Source: Campylobacterales bacterium
GTDB lineage: Bacteria > Campylobacterota > Campylobacteria > Campylobacterales > Thiovulaceae
Reading direction: 5' to 3'
Assembly (NCBI GenBank): GCA_012963895.1
Contig: DTUW01000178.1
Coordinates: forward strand, 4,434 to 34,999
Length of the DNA stretch: 30,566 bases
The position numbers and the translations under genes were made by a program. Positions 11,854 to 30,566 of this stretch are shown one piece after another. Within the stretch, counting starts at the first letter, position 1. Every line of letters begins with the position of its first letter. Under the pieces are notes generated by a model that searched no databases, was not told the DNA's origin, and saw only the letters and a program-made list of their open reading frames with translations.

Positions 11854-11863
11854 CTATATCCCC

Positions 11864-14758
11864 TTATACATTTGCTTTTTCGAAATTGACGGCACCATCA
11901 TAAGCATATTGGTTTCCGTCCCATAGTCCGCCAAATTTGAGATGACCCCAACCATCAGCCATTTCAAGAAGGTTGAGAGCTGTTGGAACAACTTCATTAT
12001 GCCCTTTATTGAATTTATACATATAAGGCTCCCAGCCGTGTTCCATAACCAATCCATCAGGTGGGCAAGATGAAGAGACTTTTGCCATTGCATAGAATTC
12101 ACCTAGAACATTATATACCCTAATGGTATCTCCGTCTTTGATGCCTTTCTGTTTGGCAACCACTCTATTAACTTGAATATAAGGGACACCTCTTTGAAGT
12201 CTTTGGAGAGTTCTTGAAGCTTTATAGTTAGAGTGAATTGACCATCTAGCATGTGGAGTCATAAGGGCAAATGGATAGTCGAGAGATTTTGGTCTGATTC
12301 CCTCCATTCCTGTATTGGTATGAGCTCCCATTCTAATCCAAAGTGGATGATCAACATAGAAAGTTTGTCGCCCACTAAGGGTTTCAAGTCTCTTGAATTT
12401 GAATAGGTGGTCTTCGTTTGAGTTGAATGGTTTATCTGGATATAGAGGAGAACTCTTAGCAGCCTTTTCATTGAGTTGCAAGAATCCACCTGCTTCATAC
12501 ATCTTTTCCATTGTCCAAGGAGCATACTGCTTACACTTTTCTAAGGCTGCTTCAACTGCCAATTTATCAGTTCCTAATAGAACTTCTCCTGCATCTTCTG
12601 ACTCTTCATCTGTATTGGTATATTCGTCGTAGAAGATTGTAAGGTCATGGTATCCAGGTTTAGCATATCTGGTATGGTCTGGAATTTTGGCTTTTTCAAT
12701 ATTTTCAGGTCTATTAGCCACCTCTTGGAGTTTCTTAGCTAAGAAAGCAAACATTTCCCATTCATCTTTTGCTTCACCAACAGGTTTCATATTGGCAACA
12801 GGCTTAGCTAAGTTGGTAAATCGATGGTAACCTGGTGATGTTCTAAGGTCATACACTTCATAGTGAGATTTAGCAGGTAAAAGAATATCAGCATATACCG
12901 CAGCCTCACTCATTCGATAATCGACATAGGCGAAAAACTTCATCTGTTTTAGGAATGCTTCTCGATATTTAGAACCTTTATTTCGTCTAAATTTAGAGTC
13001 GGCAACGATGATAGCAGTATCAGGTAGCCACCAAGGTTTAACCACATTGCCGTGTTCAGATTCCAAATTAGCTTTATTGTTTTCACCTTGGGCTAATAGC
13101 TCATCGAGTATCTCCAAATACTCTTTTTTAGACATACCATTTTGAGCTCTTCGAACATCTTCATCAGAGAAATACTCTTTAAATGTAGATTTACCATCAC
13201 CAAATACAAACTCACCAACGAAACCAGAACCAAATCGAGGTGCATATTTTCCAGAGAAACCAGATAATGCTCCAAGTCCTGAAAGTTGGAATTCGTTCTC
13301 TGTATTCAATCCTCCATATGGTCCCATTCTACCGGTAAGACCCATAATAGAGGCGATATTCCAAATCGTCAAAATACCATTGAAATATTTGTTTAGTGAG
13401 AATCCAGTTGTAACAGATACAACTTTTGGAAGAGCTATATCATCGGCTAATGTCTCGACTAGACTTGGATGAACTCCTGTAATTTTCTGAGTTGCTTCTG
13501 GTGAGAATGGTTCAGCATTCTTTTTCAACATCTCAAATACGGTAGTTACTCGTCGAGTTTTTCCATGGACATCTGTAATAGTCCATTCACCTTCTAACTC
13601 TGGGTCAATTCCAAAATCTGAAATTCTAAGGGTTTCATGTTCGCTTCCCTCAGTTCCCGGCATTAGAACAGGTGAATTGGTTTTTTTGTTCCAAGCATAG
13701 AACTGCTCTTCAAATTTTTCATGCTCTTCTTCATCGCTTGTATGTTCCATATCAGACCGTCTAAGAAGTCTCTTAGTCTCTACATCAACTAAGAAAGGTA
13801 GGTCTGTATAGATTTTCATAAATTCAGGTTTATAGGTTTTCTTTTTGATAATAGTATGGATTACAGACATTGCCAATATATTGTCTGTTCCAGATTTTAC
13901 AGGTATCCATAAATCGGCAGACTTGGCTGATGCATTGTATTCAGGTGTGATAATAATTACTTTTGCCCCGTTGTATTTCCCTTCCCAAACAAAGTGAGCA
14001 TCAGGAATTCTGGAAACTGACGGATTACCTCCCCAGAACACAGCAGTATCCACTGTATAGAGGAAGTCATAGGTACAACCTAAGTTACCTTCACCATAAG
14101 CCACCGCTGCACCTGAGAACATATCTCCAAGATATGAAGATGGATAAATTCTATTTGCTCCAAGTTGGGTAGAAAATCTTAGAGGAGCTCCTCTCCTACC
14201 TTCTGTTAGTAGCCCTGTTCCTGCATGAACCATCAGTTTATCTGGTCCTCGTTCAGGGTCTGAAAGAACTTCAAAAATTTTCTCAGCTATCTTAGTTCCA
14301 GCCTCTTCCCAAGAAATTCTTTTCCATTTTCCTTCACCTCTCTCTCCAACTCTCTCCATTGGATAGAGAATTCTATCTTTCTCATACATTACTTGGGAGT
14401 GTTGAACCCCTTTATTACAACCTCTCGGGTTGAAGTCTGGAATATTTGGATTGATTGAAGGGTATCTAGCCGATTGGTTCTCTCTGGTAACTACTCCATT
14501 GTGAGACCAAACTTCCCAAGCACAGTTACCTTGACAATTGACACAGTGATAGGCAAATCCATGTTCCTCTTTTTTTCCATAGGTAAAAGAGAACTCATTT
14601 CTATACATGTTTTCTGTGTATGATGTATTGCCATAGCCCTCTTTACCATTTTCGAAAGATTGAACATCTGTTTTAGCAAACAATGAACCTTGTGAAGCTA
14701 CAAGGGTAGCTGTCATTCCTGACAACTTTAAAAAGTCTCTTCTTTTCATCTTCTCCAT
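11864..14758 (-). CDS. Tat-exported molybdopterin oxidoreductase alpha subunit, type II DMSO reductase family (Nar/Ser/Clr/Ebd/Ddh clade); substrate unknown
   Basis: Twin-arginine KRRDFLK, FS0 motif HCVNCQGNC...PRGCNKG, candidate Asp ligand in YLGDMFSG, WGGNP, ADLWIP, ADILLPA, TPHARWSIHS. Confidence 0.92.
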   Translation of the reverse strand: MEKMKRRDFLKLSGMTATLVASQGSLFAKTDVQSFENGKEGYGNTSYTENMYRNEFSFTYGKKEEHGFAYHCVNCQGNCAWEVWSHNGVVTRENQSARYPSINPNIPDFNPRGCNKGVQHSQVMYEKDRILYPMERVGERGEGKWKRISWEEAGTKIAEKIFEVLSDPERGPDKLMVHAGTGLLTEGRRGAPLRFSTQLGANRIYPSSYLGDMFSGAAVAYGEGNLGCTYDFLYTVDTAVFWGGNPSVSRIPDAHFVWEGKYNGAKVIIITPEYNASAKSADLWIPVKSGTDNILAMSVIHTIIKKKTYKPEFMKIYTDLPFLVDVETKRLLRRSDMEHTSDEEEHEKFEEQFYAWNKKTNSPVLMPGTEGSEHETLRISDFGIDPELEGEWTITDVHGKTRRVTTVFEMLKKNAEPFSPEATQKITGVHPSLVETLADDIALPKVVSVTTGFSLNKYFNGILTIWNIASIMGLTGRMGPYGGLNTENEFQLSGLGALSGFSGKYAPRFGSGFVGEFVFGDGKSTFKEYFSDEDVRRAQNGMSKKEYLEILDELLAQGENNKANLESEHGNVVKPWWLPDTAIIVADSKFRRNKGSKYREAFLKQMKFFAYVDYRMSEAAVYADILLPAKSHYEVYDLRTSPGYHRFTNLAKPVANMKPVGEAKDEWEMFAFLAKKLQEVANRPENIEKAKIPDHTRYAKPGYHDLTIFYDEYTNTDEESEDAGEVLLGTDKLAVEAALEKCKQYAPWTMEKMYEAGGFLQLNEKAAKSSPLYPDKPFNSNEDHLFKFKRLETLSGRQTFYVDHPLWIRMGAHTNTGMEGIRPKSLDYPFALMTPHARWSIHSNYKASRTLQRLQRGVPYIQVNRVVAKQKGIKDGDTIRVYNVLGEFYAMAKVSSSCPPDGLVMEHGWEPYMYKFNKGHNEVVPTALNLLEMADGWGHLKFGGLWDGNQYAYDGAVNFEKANV

Positions 14759-14764
14759 ACTTTC

Positions 14765-15901
14765 CTACCTTTTGATTGGTAAATTCATATTATTACCCCA
14801 ACTATCCCAGCTTCCGGAGTAAATTTTCACATTTTTGGCTCCGAGAAGTTGAAGAGCGGTAATAATTTCAGAACCTCGTCCTGTCCCTACTTGGCAATAG
14901 GCATAAACTGTATTGTCAGTAGATATATTGAACTTCTCAAAAACCTCTTTAAGCTCTTCCGCACTCTTAAATGGTCTCTTATTATTAGCATCTGAAATCT
15001 GTTTCCATTCGATGAATTTAGCTCCCGGAATATGTCCGCCTCGTGCCACATTATCCATTTTTCTCTCACCGATAATCTCTATCATGCTTCTAGCATCTAC
15101 AATTCTATATTTGGAATCATCTCCATTTTTGAGAATATCTTCCATTGCATGTTTAACTTCTGCGGTAGTGGCAACATTCGAAGTATCTATATTTGCTGGG
15201 TCTATATGATACTCTTTTGGCTCTACCTTCTCTTTTCCTTTGATAACAAGGAGATTTTTTTGTCCAAACTCATCTAGTTGTTTTTTCAACTTGTTAGCCA
15301 ACTTCTTAGCCTGTTTAGCCTCTTTTTTGAGAGCTTTATACTCTTCTTTTGTTATCTCCCCTTTTTTCATAGCTTTCTTAGCTTTTCTTAGCTCTTTTTT
15401 CAACTTTTTAGCTTTTTTCTTAGCTTCTTTCCATTCAGCCCTCATATTCTCATATATTGGACGATTCGGGTCAAGTTGCATTATTGCATTTCTACCACCA
15501 TCAAGTATTTTCACTTTTTTATGTCCGTAACTTTTGAAAAAGTGATATACACCGGTAGCATTCGGTCCTCGATAGTCATCGTAAGCGATTACAAGAGTAT
15601 CATTATCAATACCCTTAGAACCTATATACTTCTCTGCATCATCTATACATCTAAATAGTGGTTCGCAATGGAGTCGTCCCATTCCATCTGAATGGTGCAA
15701 ATGGTGAGCAAACATACTAACTGAGCCACGAATATGACCCAATTCATAGACATCCTCGCTATCCCCTGATACAAACATTACCCCCGGTTTACCTATCAGT
15801 TTGATAGCCTCTTCTGGTGATATAAGAATATCGCTATTCTTATATCCACTCGAAAAGGAGAAGGAGGTAGCGAGGAAAATAAGAGCGATAAACTTCCTCA
15901 T
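14765..15901 (-). CDS. Exported two-domain rhodanese/sulfurtransferase with a Lys-rich linker, first gene of the operon
   Basis: Start ATG 15901 after AAAGGA, signal peptide MRKFIALIFLATSFSFS, GHIRGS..VIAYDD (inactive domain), VDARS..GHIPGA..YCQVGTGR..YSGSWDSW (catalytic domain). Confidence 0.92.
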   Translation of the reverse strand: MRKFIALIFLATSFSFSSGYKNSDILISPEEAIKLIGKPGVMFVSGDSEDVYELGHIRGSVSMFAHHLHHSDGMGRLHCEPLFRCIDDAEKYIGSKGIDNDTLVIAYDDYRGPNATGVYHFFKSYGHKKVKILDGGRNAIMQLDPNRPIYENMRAEWKEAKKKAKKLKKELRKAKKAMKKGEITKEEYKALKKEAKQAKKLANKLKKQLDEFGQKNLLVIKGKEKVEPKEYHIDPANIDTSNVATTAEVKHAMEDILKNGDDSKYRIVDARSMIEIIGERKMDNVARGGHIPGAKFIEWKQISDANNKRPFKSAEELKEVFEKFNISTDNTVYAYCQVGTGRGSEIITALQLLGAKNVKIYSGSWDSWGNNMNLPIKR

Positions 15902-15934
15902 GTGGAGTCCTTTCCTGTGAGATAAATTTGAGAA

Positions 15935-15943
15935 ATTGTAGCA
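15935..15943 (-). promoter_or_regulatory. Putative extended -10 promoter (TGCTACAAT) for the rhodanese-molybdoenzyme operon
   Basis: TGnTACAAT on the minus strand, 33 nt upstream of ATG 15901. Confidence 0.55.
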
Positions 15944-16083
15944 AAAGTTATTGGAATGCATAGGTAGTTTGGGGATTTCTGGCAATTTCATAATAAATTA
16001 AATTTATATTTATCATTTTATGAATTTCTCAATTTCACCAGAAAATATCAATATTTGTTATCAATCAGTTCCTGAATTTTAGT

Positions 16084-16089
16084 TAGAAT
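16084..16089 (+). promoter_or_regulatory. Putative -10 box (TAGAAT) for nhaD
   Basis: TAnAAT 27 nt upstream of ATG 16117, with AAAGGA RBS in between. Confidence 0.45.
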
Positions 16090-16116
16090 TTCTCAAAAAT
16101 TACAGAAAGGAACTCT

Positions 16117-17430
16117 ATGCATCTAGAAGGTTGGGTAGATTTAGCAGGGTCGCTATTTGGAATAGCAATGCTCCTATTTTTTATTCTCGGCTATTTCTTT
16201 ATAGCGAGTGAAGAAAAGTATCAGATAAACAAGGCTAAACCGGCTCTATTTGTTGGAACTACTATTTTTATGCTTACGGCAGGTTACTATGCTTTCTACG
16301 GTTACAATTTAGACCCCCTCCATGAGGAGGTAGAACATCTCATTTTAGAAATAGCTGAAATCTTCTTTTTCCTCTATGTGGCTATGACCTTTATTGAGGC
16401 TCTAATTGAGAGAAATGTTTTCGAGGTGTTGAAATACAACCTCATCGCTAAGGGTTACACATATAGACAGCTCTTCTGGGCAACTGGAACAATTGCATTT
16501 TTCCTAAGTCCAGTGGCTGATAACTTGACGACTGCTCTAATTCTCTCAACGGTATTAGTTACTCTTGAAAAAGATAGAAAAGAGTTTCTAGTTCCGGGAG
16601 CAATCAATATTGTAGTTGCTGCAAATGCAGGAGGGGCTTGGTCTCCATTTGGAGATATTACAACTCTAATGGCTTGGACAGCCGAAAAGGGACACTTTAC
16701 AGATTTTCTATATCTTTTCCCTGCATCATTCCTAAATTGGTATGTAACTGCATTTTTACTATCTCGAATAGTGCCAACAGAGAAACCTCACCCAGTTCAG
16801 GCTGAAAATGCTCCAAAAATTTTGCCGGGTGGTAAAAATGTTATCTATCTTGGAGTTTTCACAATTGCATCAGCAGTATTCAGCAAACAGGTTCTACACC
16901 TTCCACCTATGTGGGGAATGCTCTTTGGGCTTTCAATCTTGAAACTATATGTATATAAATTGAAAAAAGATGCCCAAGTTGAGATAAATATCTTCTCATC
17001 TATCGCAAAGATAGAACACGATACATTGCTATTCTTTGTAGGTATTCTCGCAGCGGTTGGAGGTCTCCATTTCTTAGGCTTCTTAGATTTGGCGGTGAAG
17101 CTATATGACATATTCTCTCCAACAGCGGTAAATATAGGGGTTGGAATTCTTTCAGCAGTTGTGGATAATGTTCCTGTTATGAGTGCAGTTTTAAAATCAA
17201 ATCCTGATATGGGACTTGACCAATGGATGTTGGTTACTATGACCGCAGGGGTTGGAGGTAGTCTAATCTCATTCGGTTCAGCTGCCGGAGTTGGAGTGAT
17301 GGGTAAAATGCACGGAGTATATACCTTCAATTCTCACATGAAATATGCTTGGACTGTCGTAGTTGGGTATATAGTTTCTATTCTAGTCTGGTATCTCCAA
17401 TATGAAGTTCTCAAAATAGAGCATATGTAA
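16117..17430 (+). CDS. nhaD: Na+/H+ antiporter, NhaD family
   Basis: Polytopic membrane protein with INKAKPAL, FFLSPVADNLTTAL, ANAGGAWSPFGDITTLM, SAVVDNVP, GGSLISFGSAAGV. Confidence 0.92.
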   Translation: MHLEGWVDLAGSLFGIAMLLFFILGYFFIASEEKYQINKAKPALFVGTTIFMLTAGYYAFYGYNLDPLHEEVEHLILEIAEIFFFLYVAMTFIEALIERNVFEVLKYNLIAKGYTYRQLFWATGTIAFFLSPVADNLTTALILSTVLVTLEKDRKEFLVPGAINIVVAANAGGAWSPFGDITTLMAWTAEKGHFTDFLYLFPASFLNWYVTAFLLSRIVPTEKPHPVQAENAPKILPGGKNVIYLGVFTIASAVFSKQVLHLPPMWGMLFGLSILKLYVYKLKKDAQVEINIFSSIAKIEHDTLLFFVGILAAVGGLHFLGFLDLAVKLYDIFSPTAVNIGVGILSAVVDNVPVMSAVLKSNPDMGLDQWMLVTMTAGVGGSLISFGSAAGVGVMGKMHGVYTFNSHMKYAWTVVVGYIVSILVWYLQYEVLKIEHM

Positions 17431-20123: not shown

Positions 20124-21995
20124 TTGATGAAAGAGGTTCCATATCAGAAGATATTTAATAAGGCAGTTGAGCGAGTAATCCTCTCCTCTCTCATATTTCA
20201 ACCTGAATTTATCGAGGACTATATATCTGAAATAGATGAAGATGATTTTTACTTTCCATTCCATCGCGACCTATTTAGTGCGATGGTAAAGCTTGTAAAT
20301 AGTAAAAAAATAGTTACAGAAGAGCTATTAAAAGAGGAGTTGGAAAAAGAGGGGAAATTTCAAGAGGAGGAGTTCCTCAATATCCTATTAGAAGAGCCTG
20401 TAACCAAGTTGGAATACTATATCAAAGAGTTGAAGAATAAAAGCACTAAAAGAAAATTTTTACTACTTGCCAAAGAGATAGAGAATGCAATATTAGAGCA
20501 GGATTTAGATAGTTCCGAACTTATCGATTTTGTGGAAAGTCAAGTATATAAGATAGGACAAAACAACACTATCAAGGATTTCAAAAATAGTGATGAAGCG
20601 GTAGAGCTTACAAAAGAGTATATAGAGAAGATGAAAAATAGAGAGAATAAGAGCATTACAGGAGTTGATACAGGCTTTTTTGCTTTAAACAAAATGACAA
20701 CTGGATTTAATCCGGGTGATTTGGTAATTATCGCTGCTCGTCCCGCTATGGGTAAAACTGCATTTTCTCTAAATATCGTCTATCACTCTCTGAAACAGGG
20801 TAACGGAGTAGCCTTTTTCTCTCTGGAAATGCCGGTAGAGCAGTTGATGCTTAGGTTGTTTAGCATCGATTCTCTGATAGAACTCCAAAAGTTGAGAACA
20901 GGGGATTTGTCAGATGCAGAGTGGCAGATGCTCTATCAATCTATGGAGAAGTTTAGAAACTATAAACTATTTATAGATGATGATAGCGGTATCAATATCA
21001 ACCAGCTAAAAACTAAACTTAGAAAGTTGAAATCGAAAAATCCAGAAATTGGATTAGCTGTTATAGATTACATTCAAATTATGGGTTCAACAGGTTCAAA
21101 AGATAGACAGGCAGAGGTTAGCGAAATTAGTAGAGGGTTGAAACTCTTAGCAAGAGAGTTGAATATCCCTATCTTAGCCCTCTCACAACTGAACCGCTCA
21201 TTAGAAGCGAGAACCAATAAGAGACCTATTATGAGCGATATTCGAGAGAGTGGGTGTCTTGCGGGGGATACTCTAATTTTCAATACCAGAGAGAATAGAT
21301 ATGTTCGACTTGATACGATTGTCAAGAACCGAGATACCCTCCTCCCTTTTCCAACTTATGGAATGGACGAAAATAGAAATATTAGAGAGTTCAATATTAT
21401 CAACGGCTTTTTTTCAGGAGTCAAATTTGTCTATCTTCTCTCAACCTCATCACATCAGATTAAAGCCACAATAGAACACAAATTCTATACCTCCACCGGC
21501 TGGAAAGAGTTGGGAGATATTCAGATAGGTGAAGAGATAGCCATATTTGAAGATGGCAAAGTAGCCTGGGAAAAAGTGGTATCTATCGATGAGGTCGGAA
21601 ACATGGAAACTTTCGATTTGACTATTGAAGAGGTTCATAACTTTATAGCTAATGGAATTGTTGCTCACAACTCGATAGAACAAGATGCTGACATTATCCT
21701 ATTTGTCTATCGAGATGATGTATATAAGTTGAAGGCTGAAAAGGAGAAAGAGAAGGAGGCAAAGGCACAGGGTAAAAAGTATATCCCGCAAATTGAGGAA
21801 AAGAGCGAGGAGGTCGCCGAAATCATTATTGGAAAACAGCGAAATGGTCCAACAGGAGTTGTAAAGTTGAACTTTATCAAATACCAAACCCGATTTGTAG
21901 ATATTACCGATAGTTTTAGCGGTATTGATGAAGAGATTCAAACCTCTACTAAGATAAATATAGATGGCGATATGGTTGATATACCACCAATCTAA
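20124..21995 (+). CDS. dnaB: Replicative DNA helicase DnaB with mini-intein; 484 aa after splicing
   Basis: Walker A AARPAMGKT, FSLEM, VIDYIQIM, LSQLNR, DIRESG|...|SIEQDAD, KQRNGPTG. Confidence 0.97.
   Translation: MMKEVPYQKIFNKAVERVILSSLIFQPEFIEDYISEIDEDDFYFPFHRDLFSAMVKLVNSKKIVTEELLKEELEKEGKFQEEEFLNILLEEPVTKLEYYIKELKNKSTKRKFLLLAKEIENAILEQDLDSSELIDFVESQVYKIGQNNTIKDFKNSDEAVELTKEYIEKMKNRENKSITGVDTGFFALNKMTTGFNPGDLVIIAARPAMGKTAFSLNIVYHSLKQGNGVAFFSLEMPVEQLMLRLFSIDSLIELQKLRTGDLSDAEWQMLYQSMEKFRNYKLFIDDDSGININQLKTKLRKLKSKNPEIGLAVIDYIQIMGSTGSKDRQAEVSEISRGLKLLARELNIPILALSQLNRSLEARTNKRPIMSDIRESGCLAGDTLIFNTRENRYVRLDTIVKNRDTLLPFPTYGMDENRNIREFNIINGFFSGVKFVYLLSTSSHQIKATIEHKFYTSTGWKELGDIQIGEEIAIFEDGKVAWEKVVSIDEVGNMETFDLTIEEVHNFIANGIVAHNSIEQDADIILFVYRDDVYKLKAEKEKEKEAKAQGKKYIPQIEEKSEEVAEIIIGKQRNGPTGVVKLNFIKYQTRFVDITDSFSGIDEEIQTSTKINIDGDMVDIPPI
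21255..21671 (+). mobile_element. DnaB mini-intein (139 aa, aa378-516), no endonuclease
   Basis: CLAGDTLI start, ATIEHKF (TxxH), WKELGDIQIGE, TFDLTIEEVHNFIANGIVAHN|S. Insertion site RESG|SIEQD is that of the Ssp/Rma DnaB inteins. Confidence 0.96.
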
Positions 21996-22004
21996 GGATA
22001 GGAA

Positions 22005-23099
22005 TTGAGAGAATATTTTCTAAATCACTCCCCTATCTCCTTTCGATTTGCTCAAAATAGTAAAGATTTTATAGTTTCTGAAATTCCTCTATATAGTTGG
22101 AGTGGAGAGGGCGAACATCTCATTTTGCACATTCGAAAAAAGAATCAAACAACTTGGGAGATGGTAAATAGCATCGCAAAGGTTCTCAATATCGATAGTC
22201 GGAATATTGGATATGGAGGGTTGAAGGATAAACACGGATTGACTATCCAATATATCTCTATTCCTCGCAAATTGGAAAATAGATTATCAGAAATCGAAAA
22301 GCTTCCCAATATCAAAATCCTAGCCACCCATTACCATAAAAACAAAATCAAGATAGGACATCTAAAAGGAAATAGCTTTTTTATTCGATTAAAAAAAGTC
22401 TCTCCTATGTCGGCTAAAAAGATAGCAGAAGTTTTGAAAACTATCCAAGAGGTTGGAATACCCAATTTCTTTGGTTATCAGCGGTTTGGAATAGATGGAG
22501 AGAACCACAAGATTGGTAAAGAGATATTGGAAGGTAAAAGGTATATTAGGGATAGGAAAAAGAGAAAATTCTTTCTCAACTCCTATCAGAGCTACCTATT
22601 CAATCTATGGCTATCGGAACGGATTCGATTTAATAAAATGGTTGATGAGTTTTCAACTTCTGAACTGGCAAAGGCTCTCCAAACTTTGGGGATTTCAATT
22701 CAAAATATTGAAGTCCTCAAATCTCAACCTCATCACTTCAAACTATTAGAAGGTGATTTTATGCTCCACTATCCACATGGAAAGGGGTTCTATCTGAAAT
22801 TGGAGGAACTCGATGAGGTGGTGGAGAGATTTCAGAGAAGGGATATAGTTCCGTCGGGGCTTCTCTTTGGGAATAGAGTAAAACATGCAGTAGGTGAGAG
22901 TTGGGATAATTTTGAAAAGAGGTATATCGAACATGGAAATCTCGCCGATGGCGGAAGGCGGTTCGCTTGGATATTTCCAACTGATATAGAGTGGAGATAT
23001 AGAGAGGAGAGTTTTTGGTTTGAGTTGAGATTTACCCTTCCCAAAGGGAGCTATGCAACCTCTCTAATAGAAGAGATAGCTAAGAGGGACATAAGGTAA
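22005..23099 (+). CDS. truD: tRNA pseudouridine(13) synthase
   Basis: DFIVSEIP, GEGEHL, GLKDKHG (catalytic Asp), LKGNSF, PNFFGYQRFG, SYQSYLFN, FTLPKGSYAT. TTG start. Confidence 0.95.
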   Translation: MREYFLNHSPISFRFAQNSKDFIVSEIPLYSWSGEGEHLILHIRKKNQTTWEMVNSIAKVLNIDSRNIGYGGLKDKHGLTIQYISIPRKLENRLSEIEKLPNIKILATHYHKNKIKIGHLKGNSFFIRLKKVSPMSAKKIAEVLKTIQEVGIPNFFGYQRFGIDGENHKIGKEILEGKRYIRDRKKRKFFLNSYQSYLFNLWLSERIRFNKMVDEFSTSELAKALQTLGISIQNIEVLKSQPHHFKLLEGDFMLHYPHGKGFYLKLEELDEVVERFQRRDIVPSGLLFGNRVKHAVGESWDNFEKRYIEHGNLADGGRRFAWIFPTDIEWRYREESFWFELRFTLPKGSYATSLIEEIAKRDIR

Positions 23100-23103
23100 T
23101 CAG

Positions 23104-23508
23104 ATGATGTTTATTGTTTGGAATCTGAGAAAAGTTCCAATAGATGTCTATCTCAATAGAGTTACCGAAAAAATTAGAATAGAATTCAAAAAATCTGTTC
23201 ATTACGACAATTGTAGAATGGCAATTATTCACAATCCCAATTTTATAGATTTGAAGATATACAAAGTGAAATATATGTATCACACCTATCCATCTCATGA
23301 GAATGTAATAGAGTATTTATTGAAAATCAGACAAAAAGACACAATATTGGTAGTTGATGAAGAGGAAATATTGGATATGTATCTACAATATCCAGAGTTC
23401 AAATCCATCTTACATCTTAGAAAAGATTTCACATTCTCTCAAATTAGAGGCAAGTTTTCTATAAATTTAGACACAAGAATCAAAACTACAAAGATAGATA
23501 AATGGTAG
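23104..23508 (+). CDS. Hypothetical protein (134 aa)
   Basis: ORF fills the gap after truD, 4 nt after its stop. No family recognised. Confidence 0.6.
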   Translation: MMFIVWNLRKVPIDVYLNRVTEKIRIEFKKSVHYDNCRMAIIHNPNFIDLKIYKVKYMYHTYPSHENVIEYLLKIRQKDTILVVDEEEILDMYLQYPEFKSILHLRKDFTFSQIRGKFSINLDTRIKTTKIDKW

Positions 23509-24128
23509 ATATATATAACTCTGAATATTTGCTAAAAGAGTATATAAGCGAAATCAAGGTAAATGGCAATAAGTATAGAAAAAAATATAGAGTGGAATTT
23601 AGCCACCATATCTACAATGATACTCTGTATAGAATAGGGAGCGAATTTAGCCTATCAGAATTGAAATATTCCATGACACAACTATATGCAAAGATTGATA
23701 AATGCACAAATATAGAAAAACCTTGTGTCAAATTTTTTAAATTAGATAACAATAGAAAGATAAGATTTGTTTTTGTCTATAAAAAAGATAGTAATGTTGT
23801 AAGGTTTATTAGCATATCATTAGCTGTAAAAAATAGAGGTTTTGAGGTGATATTAGATATTCTTAAAGAGCAGAAGGATATAAAATCCAAAATTGCTAGT
23901 ATAGTTGCACATGTTCAATCTAATATCGATGAAATCGAGGATTACAAGTCCTATCTAGTTCTATTGGCCAATATTAGTTTGGTAATGAGACAAAAAAATT
24001 TACATAAAGAAGATAAAAACTTTTTTAAAAACATGAAACAGAAAATCTCAATGTTATGCGAACAGATAATATTGCAACACTTGTCAAACAACCAAAGTAT
24101 CACAAATATTCTAAAAGAATTAGAATAG
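23502..24128 (+). CDS. Hypothetical protein (208 aa)
   Basis: ORF overlapping the previous stop. Long open frame in very AT-rich DNA. No family recognised. Confidence 0.65.
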   Translation: MVDIYNSEYLLKEYISEIKVNGNKYRKKYRVEFSHHIYNDTLYRIGSEFSLSELKYSMTQLYAKIDKCTNIEKPCVKFFKLDNNRKIRFVFVYKKDSNVVRFISISLAVKNRGFEVILDILKEQKDIKSKIASIVAHVQSNIDEIEDYKSYLVLLANISLVMRQKNLHKEDKNFFKNMKQKISMLCEQIILQHLSNNQSITNILKELE

Positions 24129-24179
24129 GGGCTATTTTTGATAATATTCTAAATGTTCTATGTTAAAAAAGGAGTAAAT

Positions 24180-26318
24180 ATGTTGCTATTTAGGTATCTG
24201 GCAATTTTTTGGGTTTTAGCTTCCCTTCTATTTTCAGCACCAATAGATGAAAAGAGAGTATTAGTTTCTAAAATAGGTGCAAACAAATACAAAATGAGAC
24301 TATATTTCAATTACGAAAACCCTTACAATACACAGGCTACATTAGTTGGGAGAAATGCTCAATATGATGTAAATATACCTATTCCAGATAAATTCGATGT
24401 TTTGCATATGTCTTTAAAGATGAAATATATACCATCTCTCCTTTTGCAACACACCCGTTCAGTGATTGCAGTTCATGCAAATGGACATATAGCGAGACAA
24501 TTCAGATTGAACCAAAGCAAATTCAAAGATAGCGGAGTTACAACGATAACTTCAGATATTCCAACAAATTTTTTGTTGGATTACAACAAGATTGGGGTGA
24601 AAATTATTCAACACTATGCTAGTGGTCCTAGTGAGGATACATCGGTTCCTGAGCTATGGACACAATTAGACTTGCACCATAGTTATGTAGAGATAGTTTT
24701 CAAACTGAAAGAGTTCAAAGAGAAACTTAGTTCCATCTCTAAATTTGTCCTAGACCCAAAAGAGGTATTTAAAGAGACTCTAAATTTTGTATTTCCAAAA
24801 TATCCAAAAGATGGTGATTTCTTCAATTACGGCTTTTTTGCCCATTTTGCCGGGCGAACTTTGAAATTTAGAGATATAGATTTTTCAGTATCTACCAAAA
24901 TAGATGATAGACGAAACAACATCATTATCATGCCTCGTAAAGATTTGAAAAAGGTTTTTGAAAAATATGATATTAAGGATTTGGATAAGAAGATTTCGGG
25001 TAATATCAATGTAATTCAAAATCCTCACCGCCCTGAAAAAGGATTTATAGTAATTACAGGAAAAGATGAGAAAGAGATAAAGAATGCTCTATTCAGATTG
25101 AATAGCGACCTATTCCTATTAGATGAACAAAATATAAAAGTTGTCTCTATTGAAACTCCTCCACCTGCTCAACCATACTCTGCACCTGGATATATACTAC
25201 CTGGAAGCAAAGTATATTTTTCAGAACTTGGATATAAAACAAAGACATTTAGCGGAGAACAGCCAGAAAATCTATTCCTAAATTTCAAGATGTATCCAAC
25301 AGTTGACTATAACGATAATGATATGATTCAAGTTGTTATCAAGACGATAAATAGCAAAATACTAAGAAACGACTCAGCCATCAATGTATATATCAACAAC
25401 AATTTTGCATACCAATATAGAATATCAACAAATGAAAAAAATGACATCTACAATGCAGGATCTGACCAACAGTTCGAACTAGAAAACAGAAACTCTATTC
25501 CAAGTATTCTACTTAACAAAGGTCGAAATAGCTTGAAGATGGATATTACAATGTTCCCTATTGGTGGTCCTGCTCTTGTGAGATTTAACAACAAAATTCT
25601 AAAACTTATTATTCGAGATGACTCTTACTTAGTTTTCCCAGAGGCTCAAACAGAAATTGAATATCCAAATCTCCAATATGTAAAAGATTTGGCATTCCCA
25701 TTCTCTATCTATCCGGATTTACAAAATACAGGTATTTTGATTACCGACTTTGATAGTAGAACTATTGCATCAGCAATGTATGTTGCATTCTTCTTAGGAA
25801 AATTGGTCGATTATCCAGCCTATTACCTAACTATCACTCCTGATATTAATAAGATGTTGAAAAAAGATATTATCAGTGTTGGAAAGCAGGTAGAGCGGTT
25901 CGCCCTTCTATATCAAAATGCTCCTCTCAAATTTACAAAAGATGGATTAGTTAAAGAAATATCACTAGGTAAGAAATATATAGAGGTCAATGGTAAAAAA
26001 GTTGAAAAGTCTTTTGCCTCTGCCAAGATTGTTGAGAATGTAAATCTCAACCACTATCTCATTGTTCAAATGTATCAATCTCCATTTGATGAAAAGAGAG
26101 TTATTTTAGAAATTTCAGCAAATAATCCAGAAACCCTATATAAGGGAATTAAAAACGGATTTACCCCTGTTCATATGGGAACATTCCAAGGAGATACTTG
26201 GCTCTACAATGTAGATACCAATAAATCTCGTTCGTTCAGATTGCAGGATAGCTACACCCTCCATCAACTAATAGAAGGTGATAATATGTATGGAGAAGAT
26301 GATTTTATTGAAGAATAG
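24180..26318 (+). CDS. bcsB: BcsB-like periplasmic polysaccharide-secretion co-polymerase, paralog 1, no C-terminal TM anchor
   Basis: Start ATG 24180 after AAGGAG, signal peptide. BcsB-like motifs LLDYNKIG..QHY..ED..PELW, APGYI..VYFSELG, YPNLQ..FPFSIYPDLQNT, YQSPFDEKRVIL..FQGD. Family assigned from a remembered BcsB alignment. Confidence 0.8.
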   Translation: MLLFRYLAIFWVLASLLFSAPIDEKRVLVSKIGANKYKMRLYFNYENPYNTQATLVGRNAQYDVNIPIPDKFDVLHMSLKMKYIPSLLLQHTRSVIAVHANGHIARQFRLNQSKFKDSGVTTITSDIPTNFLLDYNKIGVKIIQHYASGPSEDTSVPELWTQLDLHHSYVEIVFKLKEFKEKLSSISKFVLDPKEVFKETLNFVFPKYPKDGDFFNYGFFAHFAGRTLKFRDIDFSVSTKIDDRRNNIIIMPRKDLKKVFEKYDIKDLDKKISGNINVIQNPHRPEKGFIVITGKDEKEIKNALFRLNSDLFLLDEQNIKVVSIETPPPAQPYSAPGYILPGSKVYFSELGYKTKTFSGEQPENLFLNFKMYPTVDYNDNDMIQVVIKTINSKILRNDSAINVYINNNFAYQYRISTNEKNDIYNAGSDQQFELENRNSIPSILLNKGRNSLKMDITMFPIGGPALVRFNNKILKLIIRDDSYLVFPEAQTEIEYPNLQYVKDLAFPFSIYPDLQNTGILITDFDSRTIASAMYVAFFLGKLVDYPAYYLTITPDINKMLKKDIISVGKQVERFALLYQNAPLKFTKDGLVKEISLGKKYIEVNGKKVEKSFASAKIVENVNLNHYLIVQMYQSPFDEKRVILEISANNPETLYKGIKNGFTPVHMGTFQGDTWLYNVDTNKSRSFRLQDSYTLHQLIEGDNMYGEDDFIEE

Positions 26319-26328
26319 GTAATTGGAA

Positions 26329-28388
26329 ATGGCAATCAGAGTATTTGTATTACTACTATCATTAGCCCTCCTTTTGGAGGGTAAAGAGGTAAAAAAAAAA
26401 GGGTTATAGTATCCCAGATTGGTGATAACCTCTATCGGTTGAGAATATATCTCAACTACGAGAATCCCTATAAAACCAAAGTTGAACTCAACCAACAAGA
26501 TGGAAAACTGAAATTTCCTCTACCTATCCCAGATAGGTATAAAGTTGTCAAAATCAGAGAGTATATCCGATATACTCCTGGTTTGGCGACAAAATATCAA
26601 GGCTCTTACTTCTTAGGTCTCCTCAACGGAAATATTATCTATCAATCTAAACTAATTACCGATTTGGGTCGTCGCAAGGCAAAAAGTGTCAAATTTGATG
26701 TTCCAATTGATAAGCTGTATGAAGGCTACAACAATTTAGATATTGCTATCTACCAAAGTCCAGTTGATGGAGGATACAACCAGAAGGGATTTCCATCTGT
26801 CTGGACTCAAATTGATATCGAAAATAGCTATATTGAGATGGACTTCTCCGTCCAAGATTTTGAGGAAAAACTAAGTTCAATCTCTAAATTTATGTTTGAT
26901 AACAAGTCAATCATCAAAGGCAAAGTAAATTTTGTTTTACCAGCTGTTCCAACAGAGACCGATTTCTACAATTATAGTTTTATGGCATATGTAATTAGCC
27001 ATATCTTGAAATTTAGAGATATTGACATCTTTGTATCTACTCGAATAAATAACAATATGCATAATGTCATTATTGCCCAATGGAGCAACCTCTCCAAAAT
27101 TGTTCAAGATAGAAGAATATTGGACAAAGTCAAGGGCAATCTCAATATAGTTCGAAACCCAAATAATCGCAAAAATGGAATCTTGGTCATTACTGGCAAC
27201 TCTCAACAAGAGCTAATCAATGGACTTTATACCCTCTTGGATAAAGATATAGAGATTTTGGACATTCCATCAATTAGAGTTGCAGAGTTCAAAGTTCCGC
27301 CGAAAGCTCCACCACTTTCAGGTAAAGGCTTTTTTCCATTTGATAAACCAGTGAAGTTAGAAAGTTCTATTTTTCAAAATGGCTCTATCTACTCAAAAAA
27401 CTCAGCTTCTATGTTTGATGGAGACTTCAAAATATATCCTATTGTAAATTTCCGAAATAGCGATAACAAGCCTATTACTCTAAATTTGAAATATTTCGCC
27501 TCTCAATCTCCAAACTTACAACTAAGTTGTAACATATACCTTAATGGTATCTTGGCATATACCACTATGCTTCACAACAATATCCAAGAAAACTCGGAAG
27601 TTCTATCTGAAAATATCACCTTCTCCCCTATCCTTTTAAAACCTGGATTGAACCATATTCGTATCAAATTGACTCACTCCAAAAGTGAAGATATTAAAGC
27701 TAAGATTTTGGAAAGTTCCACTATCACAATCCCAAAAGCTGAACCAGAGACCAAATTACCAAACTTGGAATATATATCCAAGTTGGCTTTTCCATTTTCC
27801 ATCTATTCAGATTTACAGGATACAGGTGTTCTAATTACAGATTTTCATGCCAATACAATTGCTTCTGCTTTTCAGGTTGTTTTTCAACTCGGAAGGCTCA
27901 TGAAAACTCCGCCTTACTATCTGACAATGACATATGATATAAATAAGATATTGGATAAAAATATTATTGTTGTAGGACCTCAAATATCCAATTACAAAGT
28001 TCTATATCAGAATGCACCTATAAAATTTATTCGTGGTGGTATCATAAAAGAGCAATATATCAAAGAGCTAAATAAAACCATTAGAACCAGAGAGATAGCC
28101 GATTTCTCCAATATCCTATTTGCCCAAACCTACCAATCTATTTTTAACCCAAATAGGATAGTTTTCGAACTAACCGCACAATCACCTAAAACACTACTTA
28201 AAGGGGTTCAAAATGGATTTGTGCCTATCCAACTCGGAAATTTTAAAGGTGATGTGTGGCTCTACAATATAGAGACAGAAGACCAACAATCATCTAGATA
28301 TAGAAAAAGCTATATTGCCGATGAGGTTTTCAAAGGGTTCAAAAATATCTATGCCGATGAAAAATATCTCGATATTGAGAACTTCTAA
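26329..28388 (+). CDS. bcsB: BcsB-like paralog 2, frameshifted at a poly-A tract just after the signal peptide
   Basis: ATG 26329 gives MAIRVFVLLLSLALLLEGKEVKKK, then TAG at 26407. The -1 frame continues RVIVSQIGDNLYRLRIYLNYENP, matching the N-termini of paralogs 1 and 3. Contains FPFSIYSDLQDTG and YQSIFNPNRIVF. Confidence 0.8.
26391..26400 (+). repeat. A10 homopolymer at the frameshift point
   Basis: Ten consecutive A. A11 or A8 would restore the frame. Confidence 0.9.
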
Positions 28389-28391
28389 ATC

Positions 28392-30410
28392 ATGAATAGA
28401 TTGTTAGCTCTTTTCCTCCTCCTGCTCTTTTCAACCTCATCACTATTTAGCAAATCTGACAAGAGGCTTATCGTCTCACAACTTGATAGTAATTTATATA
28501 GAATGAGGATATATCTAAATTTCGAGAATCCGAGCCAAACATCGGCAAAACTTACTAAATCGGCTAACAAGTTTTTCATCACTATTCCGAAGCCTGATAG
28601 ATTCAATATCGTAAAGATTAGGGAAACTCTCTATTACCAATCTTCAATTGATAAAAGTAGCTATTTAAATATATTGGCAAATGGTAATTTTGTTCAACAA
28701 CTAACATCAGAAAATGGTGAAAATACCATCACTATTCCAAAAAAATATTTTCGACAAGATTACAACTCGGTAGGGGTTCAGAGTTTCCATAAGTCGCCAG
28801 ATTCCTGGATTCAAATCGACCTATCCAAAAGCTATATAGACATCTATTTTCAACTGAAAGAGTTTGAGGAGAGGCTAAGTTCTATATATAGATATATGTT
28901 TGATACTAAAAATATCTATCGAGATAGTATAAATTTTGTCTTTCCAAAATTGCCTACTGAACAAGATTTGACCAATTACGGAATTGTCGCGAATGCTATT
29001 GGGAATATATTGAAATTTAGGTATATAAATTTCTATGTCTCCACCTCTATTAGTGATAGTATGAACAATATAGTTATTGGTAGCTGGAAAAAGATTAGGG
29101 GGATTTTGCAAAAACATATAGATATTAAGAAATTCGATGAGGTAGCGAAAAAGGGGATTGGAACAATAGGAGTATATAGAAATAGAAACAATCCAAGTAA
29201 AGGGATTTTGGTAATTGGAGGCAAAGACACCAAAGAGATAGAGAAGGCAATATATAAGCTGTTTGATAAAAATTTAGAAATATACGACCAGCAATATATC
29301 AGTATTGCATCAAAAGAGATAGAGATAGAGAAAGCTCAACCCTATACAGCTCCTAAGTTTGCTCCGTTTGGAAAAAAGATATATCTCAGAGATTTAGGGC
29401 TAAATTCTTTAACTTTCGTTGGAAAAGGTAATTTCAATATATCATACAAGTTGAACATATATCCATCTTTCAAATTCGACAATAGCAATATTGGAATGAG
29501 GTTGAAATACTTCTCCTCTGATATTGCAGGGGTAGATAGAATATTCAATATTTCAATAAATGATATGTTCGTCTATCAATATTCAGATGAATACCTATCA
29601 CAAAAGGAGAGTTATAGAGATACGGGAGAATTTGGATTTCCTGCCAATATTCTAAATGGTGGAGGTAAATTCAATTTCAATATAGAAATATCTAGTCTTT
29701 TGAAAGACCCTTCAATAGAGCCATCAGATATCAAATTTACTCTAAGAGATGACTCATATATAGTATTACCAAAAGGAAAATCCTATATAGAACTACCAGA
29801 ATTGAAATATATTATGGAGTCATCATTCCCTTTCTCTATTTATCCAGACCTGCAAGATACTGGGATAGTGATTACAGATTTTCACTCTCAAACAATAGCA
29901 TCTGCTATGTTTTTAGCATTCAAGTTAGGAATGGATATCCAATCTCCGGGATATTTTTTGAAGCTAACCTATGACATAAATTCAGTCAAAGATAAAAATA
30001 TTATTCTCGTAGGTAAGGAGATAAGAAACTATGGAGCTATCTACGAAAAAGCTCCTATTCAATTTACGAAAGGTGGAATTATTAGAAGAGGATACGATAA
30101 AAAAACTCGCAAAAGTTTCCAATACAGAGAAGATATAGACCTAAGTAATTTTGTAGTTGCCCAAACTTACCAATCTTTATTTGACCCTAAAAAGATAGTG
30201 TTTGAGGTAACTGCTCTATCTCCAAAAGTTCTATATATTGGAGTTCATAAAGGATTTACCCCTGATAATAGTTGGAGTTTTAAGGGGGATATTTGGTTCT
30301 ACAATGTTGAAAGCGAAAAAGCATATTCATACCAATTCCAAAGAAAATATATAGTAGAGAATATTGAAAGTGAAGATAATAACCAATCTATATCAGTTGA
30401 GGAGCTATGA
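28392..30410 (+). CDS. bcsB: BcsB-like paralog 3, no C-terminal TM anchor
   Basis: Signal peptide MNRLLALFLLLLFSTSSLFS, KRLIVSQ..YRMRIYLNFENP, APKF..IYLRDLG, LPELKY..FPFSIYPDLQDTG, YQSLFDPKKIVF..FKGDIWFYNV. Confidence 0.8.
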   Translation: MNRLLALFLLLLFSTSSLFSKSDKRLIVSQLDSNLYRMRIYLNFENPSQTSAKLTKSANKFFITIPKPDRFNIVKIRETLYYQSSIDKSSYLNILANGNFVQQLTSENGENTITIPKKYFRQDYNSVGVQSFHKSPDSWIQIDLSKSYIDIYFQLKEFEERLSSIYRYMFDTKNIYRDSINFVFPKLPTEQDLTNYGIVANAIGNILKFRYINFYVSTSISDSMNNIVIGSWKKIRGILQKHIDIKKFDEVAKKGIGTIGVYRNRNNPSKGILVIGGKDTKEIEKAIYKLFDKNLEIYDQQYISIASKEIEIEKAQPYTAPKFAPFGKKIYLRDLGLNSLTFVGKGNFNISYKLNIYPSFKFDNSNIGMRLKYFSSDIAGVDRIFNISINDMFVYQYSDEYLSQKESYRDTGEFGFPANILNGGGKFNFNIEISSLLKDPSIEPSDIKFTLRDDSYIVLPKGKSYIELPELKYIMESSFPFSIYPDLQDTGIVITDFHSQTIASAMFLAFKLGMDIQSPGYFLKLTYDINSVKDKNIILVGKEIRNYGAIYEKAPIQFTKGGIIRRGYDKKTRKSFQYREDIDLSNFVVAQTYQSLFDPKKIVFEVTALSPKVLYIGVHKGFTPDNSWSFKGDIWFYNVESEKAYSYQFQRKYIVENIESEDNNQSISVEEL

Positions 30411-30566
30411 TTTTGGTAATTAGATACTTACTATTTTTCACCCTAATCCTTGCCTCTCTTCTCTCTGAGGAGATAAAAATATATAGAGATGGCATATCCC
30501 TAATTCAAAGAGGAGAGAAAAAATATATTAGGATATATCTTAACCACGATAATAATTCCACCTTTC
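30407..30566 (+). CDS. Exported protein, probable fourth BcsB-like paralog (partial, runs off the right edge)
   Basis: ATGA overlap with the paralog 3 stop. MILVIRYLLFFTLILASLLSEEIKIYRDGISLIQRGEKKYIRIYLNHDNNSTF; RIYLNHDN echoes RIYLN(Y/F)EN of the other paralogs. Confidence 0.65.
   Translation, partial: MILVIRYLLFFTLILASLLSEEIKIYRDGISLIQRGEKKYIRIYLNHDNNSTF

What the first reader, a model, noticed from the sequence alone, without database searches (positions are those of the whole stretch)
24180..30566. Tandem array of at least four diverged BcsB-like proteins with no bcsA upstream
Seen: three full paralogs of about 670-710 aa plus the start of a fourth, sharing RIYLN(Y/F/H), FPFSIY.DLQ.TG..ITDF, Y(Q/E).AP..F, YQS.F and F.GD.W.YN, but strongly diverged in the carbohydrate-binding-domain loops (HYASGPSEDTSVPELW / YQSPVDGGYNQKGFPSVW / FHKSPDSW). 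Known: canonical operons have one bcsB right after bcsA, and E. coli BcsB homo-oligomerises into a crown of up to six copies. Inference: gene-level expansion could encode an ordered hetero-oligomeric crown or periplasmic scaffold for an undescribed exopolysaccharide secretion system.
Basis: partly seen in the sequence, partly recalled or inferred. Interest (0 to 1): 0.82.

Follow-up and report, generated by a model that had tools for sequence, protein, structure and literature searches.

The report
Cellulose operon with four BcsB genes
In sulfur bacteria of the Thiovulum family, the cellulose-secretion operon carries three exported BcsB copies without a membrane anchor ahead of the one normal anchored BcsB; this gene-encoded version of a normally single-gene periplasmic "crown" has not been described in the papers I could search and may build the slime stalks and veils these bacteria are known for.

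Summary
Window 24153-30566 encodes three complete BcsB-family proteins and the start of a fourth (Pfam PF03170, E 7e-82 to 3e-48). An AlphaFold model of paralog 3 matches E. coli BcsB crown chains (TM 0.75-0.78).

The contig continues with bcsB4, bcsZ (GH8) and bcsC (TPR). The porin and a BcsQ-like ATPase lie on another contig. A complete, PilZ-bearing bcsA is not adjacent: a contig overlap places it about 36 kb away. This is therefore a cellulose (bcs) system, not an unknown polymer system.

B1-B3 lack the C-terminal membrane anchor that defines canonical BcsB, and most relatives of B2/B3 end in a conserved acidic tail with a terminal Phe. Only B4 is anchored. The anchorless copies form one clade, sister to the Thiovulum-family anchored BcsB, with orthologues in several genera. 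Every bcs locus retrieved outside the family was bcsA plus a single bcsB, usually followed by bcsZ and bcsC.

The locus is decayed, and no bcsA was found, in cave Ca. Thiovulum stygium, which reportedly makes no slime.

A hetero-oligomeric crown is the best mechanism but is untested. The run finder was closed, so co-expression and the A10 frameshift in B2 remain open. The scan held no earlier report of this array on other DNA.

The parts
24153..26318 (+). bcsB1: exported BcsB paralog without a membrane anchor (721 aa). It has a hydrophobic N-terminal signal-like segment and an acidic C-terminal tail.
   Evidence: Pfam PF03170 E 7e-82, profile positions 13-604 of 606. There is no hydrophobic window in the last 70 residues. 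It falls in the B1-type orthologue clade with Ca. T. karukerense, isolate GLC1 and Ca. T. imperiosus (SH-aLRT 99).
26329..28388 (+). bcsB2: anchorless BcsB paralog. Its signal-peptide segment (ATG 26329) is one base out of frame with the body (open frame 26385-28388).
   Evidence: Pfam E 3e-48. Sequence and frames read. An A11 tract would give a product colinear with B1 and B3. The orthologue in the near-conspecific strain L066 is intact at 729 aa. All five members of its 90% cluster are 660 aa or shorter; the full-length calls are 649-660 aa, and 516 and 376 aa on short contigs.
26391..26400 (+). A10 homopolymer that separates the B2 signal peptide from the B2 body.
   Evidence: It is one of only six A/T runs of 10 in the 1.34 Mb assembly, none is longer, and it is the only run of 9 or more on this contig.
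28392..30410 (+). bcsB3: anchorless BcsB paralog (672 aa).
   Evidence: Pfam E 5e-52. AlphaFold2 model pLDDT 86.7, pTM 0.85. Foldseek top hits are E. coli BcsB crown chains, E about 1e-42, TM 0.75-0.78. No C-terminal TM; tail residues 661-672 are disordered in the model.
30407..30566 (+). Start of bcsB4, the canonical tail-anchored BcsB. It continues to G000:C178:37099, beyond the window.
   Evidence: PF03170 E 3e-81, profile positions 30-605. C-terminal hydrophobic helix at residues 637-664 of the 675-aa piece. It groups with the anchored BcsB of the Thiovulum relatives (SH-aLRT 100).
23084..23099 (+). End of truD, the left boundary of the divergent bcs cassette.
   Evidence: Nucleotide identity to the syntenic strain L066 is 96% up to here and about 68-72% beyond.

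Best explanation
Shown: the stretch is the front of a bcs (cellulose secretion) operon variant found only in the Thiovulum family among the genomes and databases searched. The gene order is bcsB1-B2-B3-B4, then bcsZ (GH8) and bcsC (TPR). A separate BCSC_C porin gene and a bcsQ-like ATPase gene follow in relatives; in this assembly they sit on contig C102. B1-B3 have the full four-domain BcsB fold and N-terminal signal-like segments, but they stop exactly where the amphipathic helix and transmembrane tail-anchor of canonical BcsB begin. B4 is anchored. The synthase gene bcsA is intact, carries a PilZ domain, and is encoded elsewhere, about 36 kb away on the opposite strand according to a 55-base contig overlap. 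Inferred mechanism: B4 completes the BcsA channel in the inner membrane through its tail-anchor, as in known BcsAB. B1-B3 then add onto B4 through the edge-to-edge beta-sheet contacts that make E. coli BcsB a superhelical homo-hexamer. This would give a hetero-oligomer of defined composition that is not limited by membrane anchors, can rise off the membrane, and hands the glucan to the BcsC TPR. The conserved C-terminal tails (consensus Y-x-[DK]-I-[DET]-[DE]-F in the B2/B3 clade) would be docking peptides for a neighbouring protomer or for BcsC. The product is most likely cellulose, used for the mucous stalk and veil of these bacteria. My confidence that this is a bcs operon variant with anchorless BcsB paralogs is about 0.9. 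My confidence in the hetero-oligomeric crown itself is about 0.45, and the figure below refers to that.
For: Family and fold: profile against PDB, E. coli BcsB E 2e-69; TM 0.75-0.78 to E. coli crown chains but only 0.35-0.40 to monomeric R. sphaeroides BcsB. Anchor loss. All members of the clade have a maximum C-terminal hydropathy below 0.9, against more than 2.2 in anchored BcsB. Operon: gaps of 10 and 3 bases and a 4-base overlap between the paralogs, with no terminator-like site between them on the + strand. Downstream genes. Synthase: (DDG, HAKAGN, DCD, FFCGS, TED, QRVRW, RxxxR, DxSxxG all present). Five GGDEF proteins are present. Conservation: arrays of 3-4 copies, or dispersed copies, in five other Thiovulum-family genomes or contigs. 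The anchorless clade is monophyletic (100) and sister to the family's anchored BcsB (88), with positional orthologues B1, B2 and B3. Nei-Gojobori omega is 0.11-0.16 for B1-B3 between two alleles. Literature: E. coli BcsB polymerises by beta-sheet complementation, its superhelical growth is limited by the tail-anchors, only the first copy binds BcsA and only the last binds BcsC TPR#1 (PMC7840130; PMC11379886). Natural loss: in Ca. T. stygium all three bcsB carry large deletions, the TPR and porin genes are frameshifted, and no BcsA passes the cut-off. That strain is reported not to form slime or a cohesive veil (PMC9938260).
Against: No direct evidence exists for any protein-protein contact. 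No multimer prediction was possible and no expression data could be obtained (the run finder was closed). In Ca. T. imperiosus and in locus L068 the anchorless genes are scattered singly among housekeeping genes, so co-regulation is not guaranteed. In this genome B2 has its signal peptide out of frame. The copy number varies between genomes (two or three anchorless copies), so a fixed stoichiometry is not conserved. The link between loss of the locus and a slime-free lifestyle rests on one genome. dS between the alleles is near saturation, so the omega values are rough.
Confidence: 0.45

Rival explanations
1. B1-B3 are free periplasmic glucan-binding chaperones or guides. They bind the nascent chain between BcsA-B4 and BcsC, for example to stop it aggregating in the periplasm or to present it to BcsZ, without joining a crown.
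For: They keep both carbohydrate-binding domains of the BcsB fold, have no anchor, and can be encoded away from the operon. Copy number varies between genomes.
Against: The fold is of the E. coli, oligomerising type rather than the monomeric R. sphaeroides type. Three distinct orthologue lineages are kept over genus-level divergence, which is more than one soluble binder would need. The conserved terminal peptide suggests docking to a partner.
Confidence: 0.25
2. B1-B3 leave the periplasm and act on the fibre outside the cell, as matrix or bundling proteins of the stalk. This would resemble the accessory proteins that organise cellulose ribbons in Komagataeibacter.
For: They have signal-like N-termini, no anchor, and a C-terminal aromatic residue after acidic residues. 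The organism makes a 10-100 micrometre load-bearing stalk (PMC4680615).
Against: No outer-membrane export signal or dedicated secretion gene was seen in the operon. All known BcsB proteins act in the periplasm.
Confidence: 0.1
3. The extra copies are redundant or decaying duplicates, or an artefact of mixing strains in the metagenome bin.
For: B2 is frameshifted at an A10 tract. The bin does contain a second allele of bcsB4-Z-C (contig C127) and of bcsA (contig C49) from a co-occurring strain.
Against: All four genes lie on one contig. The same array is found on independent assemblies and in other genera. The frames of about 700 codons are open, omega is about 0.1-0.16, and there are orthologous sub-clades. 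Real decay looks quite different, as in the Ca. T. stygium locus.
Confidence: 0.05
4. The paralogs are alternative BcsA partners, that is, isoforms swapped under different conditions or matched to different synthases.
For: Two bcsA variants are present in the assembly.
Against: The two bcsA variants share identical flanks and are alleles of one locus (an assembly bubble). B1-B3 lack the tail-anchor that completes the BcsA channel. From my own knowledge of Omadjela et al. 2013 (cited in PMC8892547; not checked here), the membrane-associated C-terminal region of BcsB is what BcsA needs for activity. Relatives have a single bcsA.
Confidence: 0.05

Closest known systems
E. coli BcsB homo-hexameric periplasmic crown (PDB 7L2Z, 6YG8, 9FMT; type II Bcs system)
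   Same: Same Pfam family and the same four-domain fold (Foldseek TM 0.75-0.78; profile E 2e-69). The operon also carries BcsZ, BcsC and a BcsQ-like ATPase. In the E. coli crown only the first BcsB copy touches BcsA and only the last binds BcsC.
   Different: E. coli makes the crown from one gene, and every copy is tail-anchored. Here four diverged genes are present, three of them without anchors and with conserved terminal peptides. bcsA is not adjacent. No BcsE or BcsG was found in the 81%-complete genome. BcsC is split into separate TPR and porin genes.
Canonical bcsA-bcsB-bcsZ-bcsC operons of other Campylobacterota, Aquificota and Desulfobulbaceae
   Same: They are the nearest sequence relatives of B4, with the same order of Z and C after B.
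   Different: Every locus retrieved outside the Thiovulum family carried a single bcsB. It lay directly after bcsA wherever the upstream region was on the contig, and it was anchored wherever its C-terminus could be read.
Rhodobacter sphaeroides BcsA-BcsB 1:1 complex (PDB 4HG6, 5EIY)
   Same: It is the model for how an anchored BcsB (here B4) completes the synthase channel.
   Different: The structural match to B3 is poor (TM 0.35-0.40). That BcsB is monomeric and has a helix where the E. coli type has interface strands (PMC7840130).
Duplicated whole synthase units (bcsAB paralogs of Acidobacteria, PMC9693552; multiple bcs operons of Komagataeibacter)
   Same: Paralogy within cellulose synthesis genes.
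   Different: In those cases the synthase is duplicated together with its B part. Here only B is multiplied, inside one operon, and the extra copies have lost the anchor (for the acidobacterial case).

Membership tests
BcsB (Pfam PF03170) | Match to the family profile above the curated cut-off | tested here: met
   B1 276 bits, B2 165, B3 178, B4 274, against a cut-off of 21. None reaches the NCBIfam equivalog cut-offs.
BcsB (Pfam PF03170) | Four-domain periplasmic fold (two carbohydrate-binding plus two flavodoxin-like domains) | tested here: met
   B3 model pLDDT 86.7 and pTM 0.85; TM 0.75-0.78 over about 680 columns to E. coli BcsB. B1, B2 and B4 were not modelled and are inferred from alignment A1.
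BcsB (Pfam PF03170) | C-terminal amphipathic helix and transmembrane tail-anchor that completes the BcsA channel | tested here: not met
   B1-B3 end at the column where the anchor starts, and the maximum hydropathy of their last 70 residues is below 0.9. B4 meets this feature (2.38). B1-B3 are therefore BcsB-fold paralogs, not functional equivalents of canonical BcsB.
BcsB (Pfam PF03170) | Encoded directly after (or fused to) bcsA | tested here: not met
   truD and two orphan ORFs lie upstream. bcsA is on contig C31, joined to C178 by a 55-base end overlap, about 36.5 kb away on the opposite strand. It is also unlinked in isolate GLC1 and Ca. T. imperiosus.
BcsB (Pfam PF03170) | N-terminal signal peptide (periplasmic export) | tested here: inconclusive
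   Hydrophobic N-terminal segments are present in B1, B3 and B4. No signal-peptide predictor was available. The B2 segment is out of frame.
Bacterial cellulose secretion (Bcs) system | BcsA: GT2 synthase with catalytic motifs and a c-di-GMP-binding PilZ domain | tested here: met
   TIGR03030 796 bits against a cut-off of 699; PilZ 43 bits; all motifs present.
Bacterial cellulose secretion (Bcs) system | Periplasmic GH8 endoglucanase BcsZ and outer-membrane BcsC (TPR plus porin) | tested here: met
   GH8 E 1e-55 and the TPR start on C178. The rest of the TPR gene, the BCSC_C porin (95 bits) and a BcsQ-like ATPase are on C102. I did not determine which of the two strain alleles C102 belongs to.
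Bacterial cellulose secretion (Bcs) system | Type-defining accessory subunits (BcsD for type I; BcsE and BcsG for type II) | tested here: not met
   No match to PF03500, PF11658 or PF10995 in the 81%-complete assembly. The BcsD control matched nothing in any control genome, so that result is uninformative.
Bacterial cellulose secretion (Bcs) system | The product is beta-1,4-glucan | not testable with these tools
   Inferred only from the equivalog-level BcsA score and the GH8 partner.

The most novel reading that the evidence does not exclude
The Thiovulum family has turned the homo-oligomeric BcsB crown into a genetically encoded, ordered hetero-oligomer of one anchored and two or three anchorless subunits, each with its own interface and a terminal docking peptide. 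This machine, probably polar, spins the cellulose tether that lets the cell hold station against its own roughly 40 pN thrust and build veils. The whole cassette is exchanged between near-identical strains as a co-adapted set, together with a matching allele of the unlinked bcsA.
Probability: 0.3. Interest if true: 0.8.

Novelty: new variant of a known kind. Interest (0 to 1): 0.62.

Why it matters
Why E. coli assembles six BcsB copies when only the first touches the synthase and only the last touches BcsC is an open question in cellulose secretion. A lineage that encodes separate, diverged genes, and has removed the membrane anchor from the extra ones, is a natural dissection of that asymmetry. 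It predicts which BcsB surfaces serve polymerisation, BcsA binding and BcsC binding.

It also gives the first concrete genetic candidate for the material of the Thiovulum stalk and veil. This is a classic structure in microbial ecology, and the papers read here do not address its composition. The idea is directly testable with cellulose stains or cellulase on veils. The decayed locus in the cave species, which is reported not to form slime, serves as a natural control.

Tried and rejected
1. A second bcs locus in this genome. Contig C127 (bcsB-Z-C) and contig C49 (bcsA) first looked like a second system. C127 is 97.8% identical to the allele of the near-conspecific strain L066 at the same chromosomal site. 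C49 shares its 3' flank, and its first roughly 26 codons at the protein level, with C31. Both are therefore alleles from a co-occurring strain, not a second locus.

2. The two ORFs between truD and B1 (134 and 208 aa) as bcs parts. They have no Pfam, NCBIfam or PADLOC match and are absent from L066, so they are an insertion.

3. Promoter and terminator scans were no better than shuffled sequence.

5. The genome record behind L066 is not held, so its bcsA allele could not be compared.

6. I considered a read-through fusion of neighbouring paralogs as a stand-in for a multimer prediction. I dropped it because the halves would probably refold as a chimeric monomer, and the tool returns no inter-domain error map.

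7. Literature searches for Thiovulum with cellulose, BcsB paralogs, and anchorless or soluble BcsB found no description of this arrangement. The 2015 operon census by Romling and Galperin is not held, so I could not check it.


Full report
**What is there.** The window is G000:C178:4434-34999 of a 1.34 Mb, 178-contig, 81%-complete metagenome bin.
- From 24153 to the window end there are three complete ORFs and the start of a fourth on the + strand.
- All of them match Pfam BcsB (PF03170). B1 scores 276 bits, B2 165, B3 178, and the continuation of B4 274, against a 21-bit cut-off.
- The spacing is operon-like. There are 10 bases from the B1 stop to the ATG of the B2 signal segment and 3 bases from B2 to B3, and B3 and B4 overlap in ATGA.

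**What follows and where the synthase is.** On the same contig B4 is followed by a GH8 endoglucanase (BcsZ) and the start of a TPR protein (BcsC). The contig then breaks in a proline-rich tandem repeat.
- Contig C102 starts with the remainder of a TPR protein, followed by a BCSC_C porin and a BcsQ-like ATPase. This is the order seen on unbroken contigs of relatives.
- A full bcsA lies on contig C31. It scores 796 bits on TIGR03030 against a cut-off of 699, and has a PilZ domain plus the DDG, HAKAGN, DCD, FFCGS, TED, QRVRW, RxxxR and DxSxxG motifs.
- The 5' end of C31 is the exact reverse complement of the first 55 bases of C178. bcsA therefore sits about 36.5 kb from B1 on the other strand, among housekeeping genes.
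- The genome also encodes five GGDEF proteins. No BcsE, BcsG or BcsD was found.
- This is therefore a cellulose-type Bcs system with an unlinked synthase gene, not a system for an unknown polymer.

**The key feature.** B1, B2 and B3 have hydrophobic N-terminal segments but no hydrophobic segment at the C-terminus. B4 has a clear C-terminal helix.
- In the alignment the three anchorless proteins stop at the column where the amphipathic helix and transmembrane anchor of B4 and its orthologues begin. They carry short acidic tails instead.
- An AlphaFold2 model of B3, built on a 22-sequence alignment, is confident (pLDDT 86.7, pTM 0.85), and its tail is disordered.
- Foldseek places the model on E. 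coli BcsB crown chains (E about 1e-42, TM 0.75-0.78). The match to the monomeric R. sphaeroides BcsB is much weaker (TM 0.35-0.40).

**Taxon and distribution.** Related loci name the lineage: Ca. Thiovulum karukerense, Ca. T. imperiosus, Ca. T. stygium, isolate GLC1 and further unnamed assemblies.

| Genome or locus | BcsB arrangement |
|---|---|
| Ca. T. karukerense | three anchorless copies plus a fourth cut by the contig end |
| L066 | three anchorless plus one anchored |
| GLC1 and L069 | two anchorless plus one anchored, then Z, TPR, porin, BcsQ |
| Ca. T. imperiosus and L068 | anchorless genes scattered singly |

- bcsA is never adjacent to the array.
- Every bcs locus retrieved outside the family (Sulfurimonas, Sulfurovum, Helicobacteraceae, Nautiliales, Aquificales, Desulfobulbaceae) carries a single bcsB. 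It follows bcsA wherever the upstream region is on the contig, is anchored wherever its C-terminus could be read, and is usually followed by Z and C.
- In 400 sampled genomes of the phylum, only one other genome had a BcsB, in a single copy.
- A search of 1.84 billion representative proteins with B3 found about a dozen clusters at roughly 40% identity. All of them lack an anchor. The next hits, below 31% identity, are anchored, apart from fragments and one C-terminally truncated entry.
- In the B2/B3 clade most members end in Y-x-[DK]-I-[DET]-[DE]-F.

**Evolution.** In a maximum-likelihood tree the anchorless proteins form one clade (SH-aLRT 100), sister (88) to the anchored BcsB of the Thiovulum family. 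Inside it there are orthologous sub-clades for B1 (99), B2 (99) and B3 (95). The duplications and the anchor loss therefore predate the split of the genera, and each copy has been kept since.
- L066 is a near-conspecific strain. MgtE, DnaB and TruD are 98, 98 and 95% identical in protein, and dS is 0.10-0.20.
- Across the same boundary the bcs genes drop to 51-77% protein identity with dS above 1.7. The switch falls exactly at the end of truD.
- Omega for B1-B3 is about 0.11-0.16. This is a rough value because dS is near saturation.
- The locus thus behaves as an exchangeable cassette.
- Contig C127 of this bin is the L066-type allele (97.8% identity). Contig C49 is a second bcsA allele (82% nucleotide identity) that shares its 3' flank with C31. 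Two strains with different bcs sets evidently co-occur.

**Natural loss.** In the complete genome of Ca. T. stygium the three bcsB genes are reduced to fragments. About 425 codons are deleted from the first, and only the last 200-270 codons remain of the other two.
- BcsZ is truncated, the TPR and porin genes are frameshifted, and only 40 codons remain of bcsQ. No BcsA above the cut-off is present.
[quoted passage not shown] The marine species, which have intact loci, were sampled from veils (PMC9938260).
- That paper contains no word beginning with bcs, polysaccharide or mucous. A biophysical study of the 10-100 micrometre stalk does not discuss its composition (PMC4680615).

**Mechanism.** Three points are established for E. 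coli.
- BcsB polymerises by beta-sheet complementation into a superhelix.
- Growth of that superhelix is limited by the membrane anchors.
- Only the first copy binds BcsA (PMC7840130), and only the last copy binds the first TPR of BcsC (PMC11379886).

On that basis the most economical reading is as follows. B4 is the BcsA partner. B1-B3 occupy the non-catalytic positions of the crown, free of the membrane, with the last one handing over to BcsC. This is inference, since no contact was tested.

The rivals are free glucan chaperones, extracellular fibre-organising proteins, redundant copies, and alternative BcsA partners. They are weighed in their own sections of this report.

**Open points.**
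- The B2 signal segment is one base out of frame at an A10 tract. This is one of the six longest homopolymer runs in the assembly.
- All five members of the B2 protein cluster are 660 aa or shorter, so none includes the in-frame signal segment. The L066 orthologue is intact.
- B4 crosses a 71-base masked stretch, so its continuity is unverified.

**Earlier notes.** Earlier notes of this scan on the same window had already pointed out the missing anchors and the A10 tract. I reached both independently and confirm them. The scan held no note of this array in other genomes.

**Verdict.** This is a real and conserved variant of the bcs operon, confined to the Thiovulum family in everything searched, and I found no description of it in the literature I could search. 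The hetero-oligomer idea is plausible and testable but not shown.

Noticed in passing
window 23104-24128: Two overlapping ORFs (134 and 208 aa, GC about 29%) lie between truD and bcsB1. They have no Pfam, NCBIfam or PADLOC match. They are absent from the near-identical strain L066, where truD is followed by bcsB1 after 38 bases. This is a strain-specific insertion at the cassette boundary.
   Followed up: partly
window 23084 onward; G000 contigs C127 and C49; L066: The whole bcs cassette (B1-B4, Z, C) is 51-77% identical in protein between two strains whose flanking genes are 95-98% identical (dS 0.1-0.2 against more than 1.7). The unlinked bcsA also exists as two alleles (86% protein identity) sharing the same 3' flank. 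Both allele sets occur in this one bin.
   Followed up: yes
window 26391-26400: An A10 tract puts the signal peptide of bcsB2 out of frame. All five members of the protein's 90% cluster are 660 aa or shorter, so none includes the in-frame signal segment. It is among the six longest homopolymers in the genome.
   Followed up: partly
L054 (Ca. Thiovulum stygium CP091137, locus 10000-17100): The bcs locus is decayed by large deletions and frameshifts, and no bcsA was found, in the cave species reported not to form slime.
   Followed up: yes
G000:C178:38620-38890 (beyond the window): The BcsC TPR gene contains a proline-rich tandem repeat with a 108-base period, where the contig breaks.
   Followed up: no
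window 20124-21995: DnaB carries an intein (Pfam Intein_splicing, within a DnaB_C match spanning residues 180-592). The same architecture is present in the syntenic strain L066.
   Followed up: no
L045, L047-L051, L053, L055, L057, L059: Many Sulfurimonas, Sulfuricurvum and other Campylobacterales BcsB proteins are about 950-965 aa rather than about 745 aa. For three such 958-aa proteins the precomputed annotation lists an extra PF13385 domain. This is another lineage-specific elaboration of BcsB.
   Followed up: no
L021, L069, L071: In the Thiovulum family BcsC is split into a TPR gene (about 850-890 aa) and a separate BCSC_C porin gene (about 490-540 aa). A BcsQ-like ATPase gene comes last in the operon rather than first.
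   Followed up: partly
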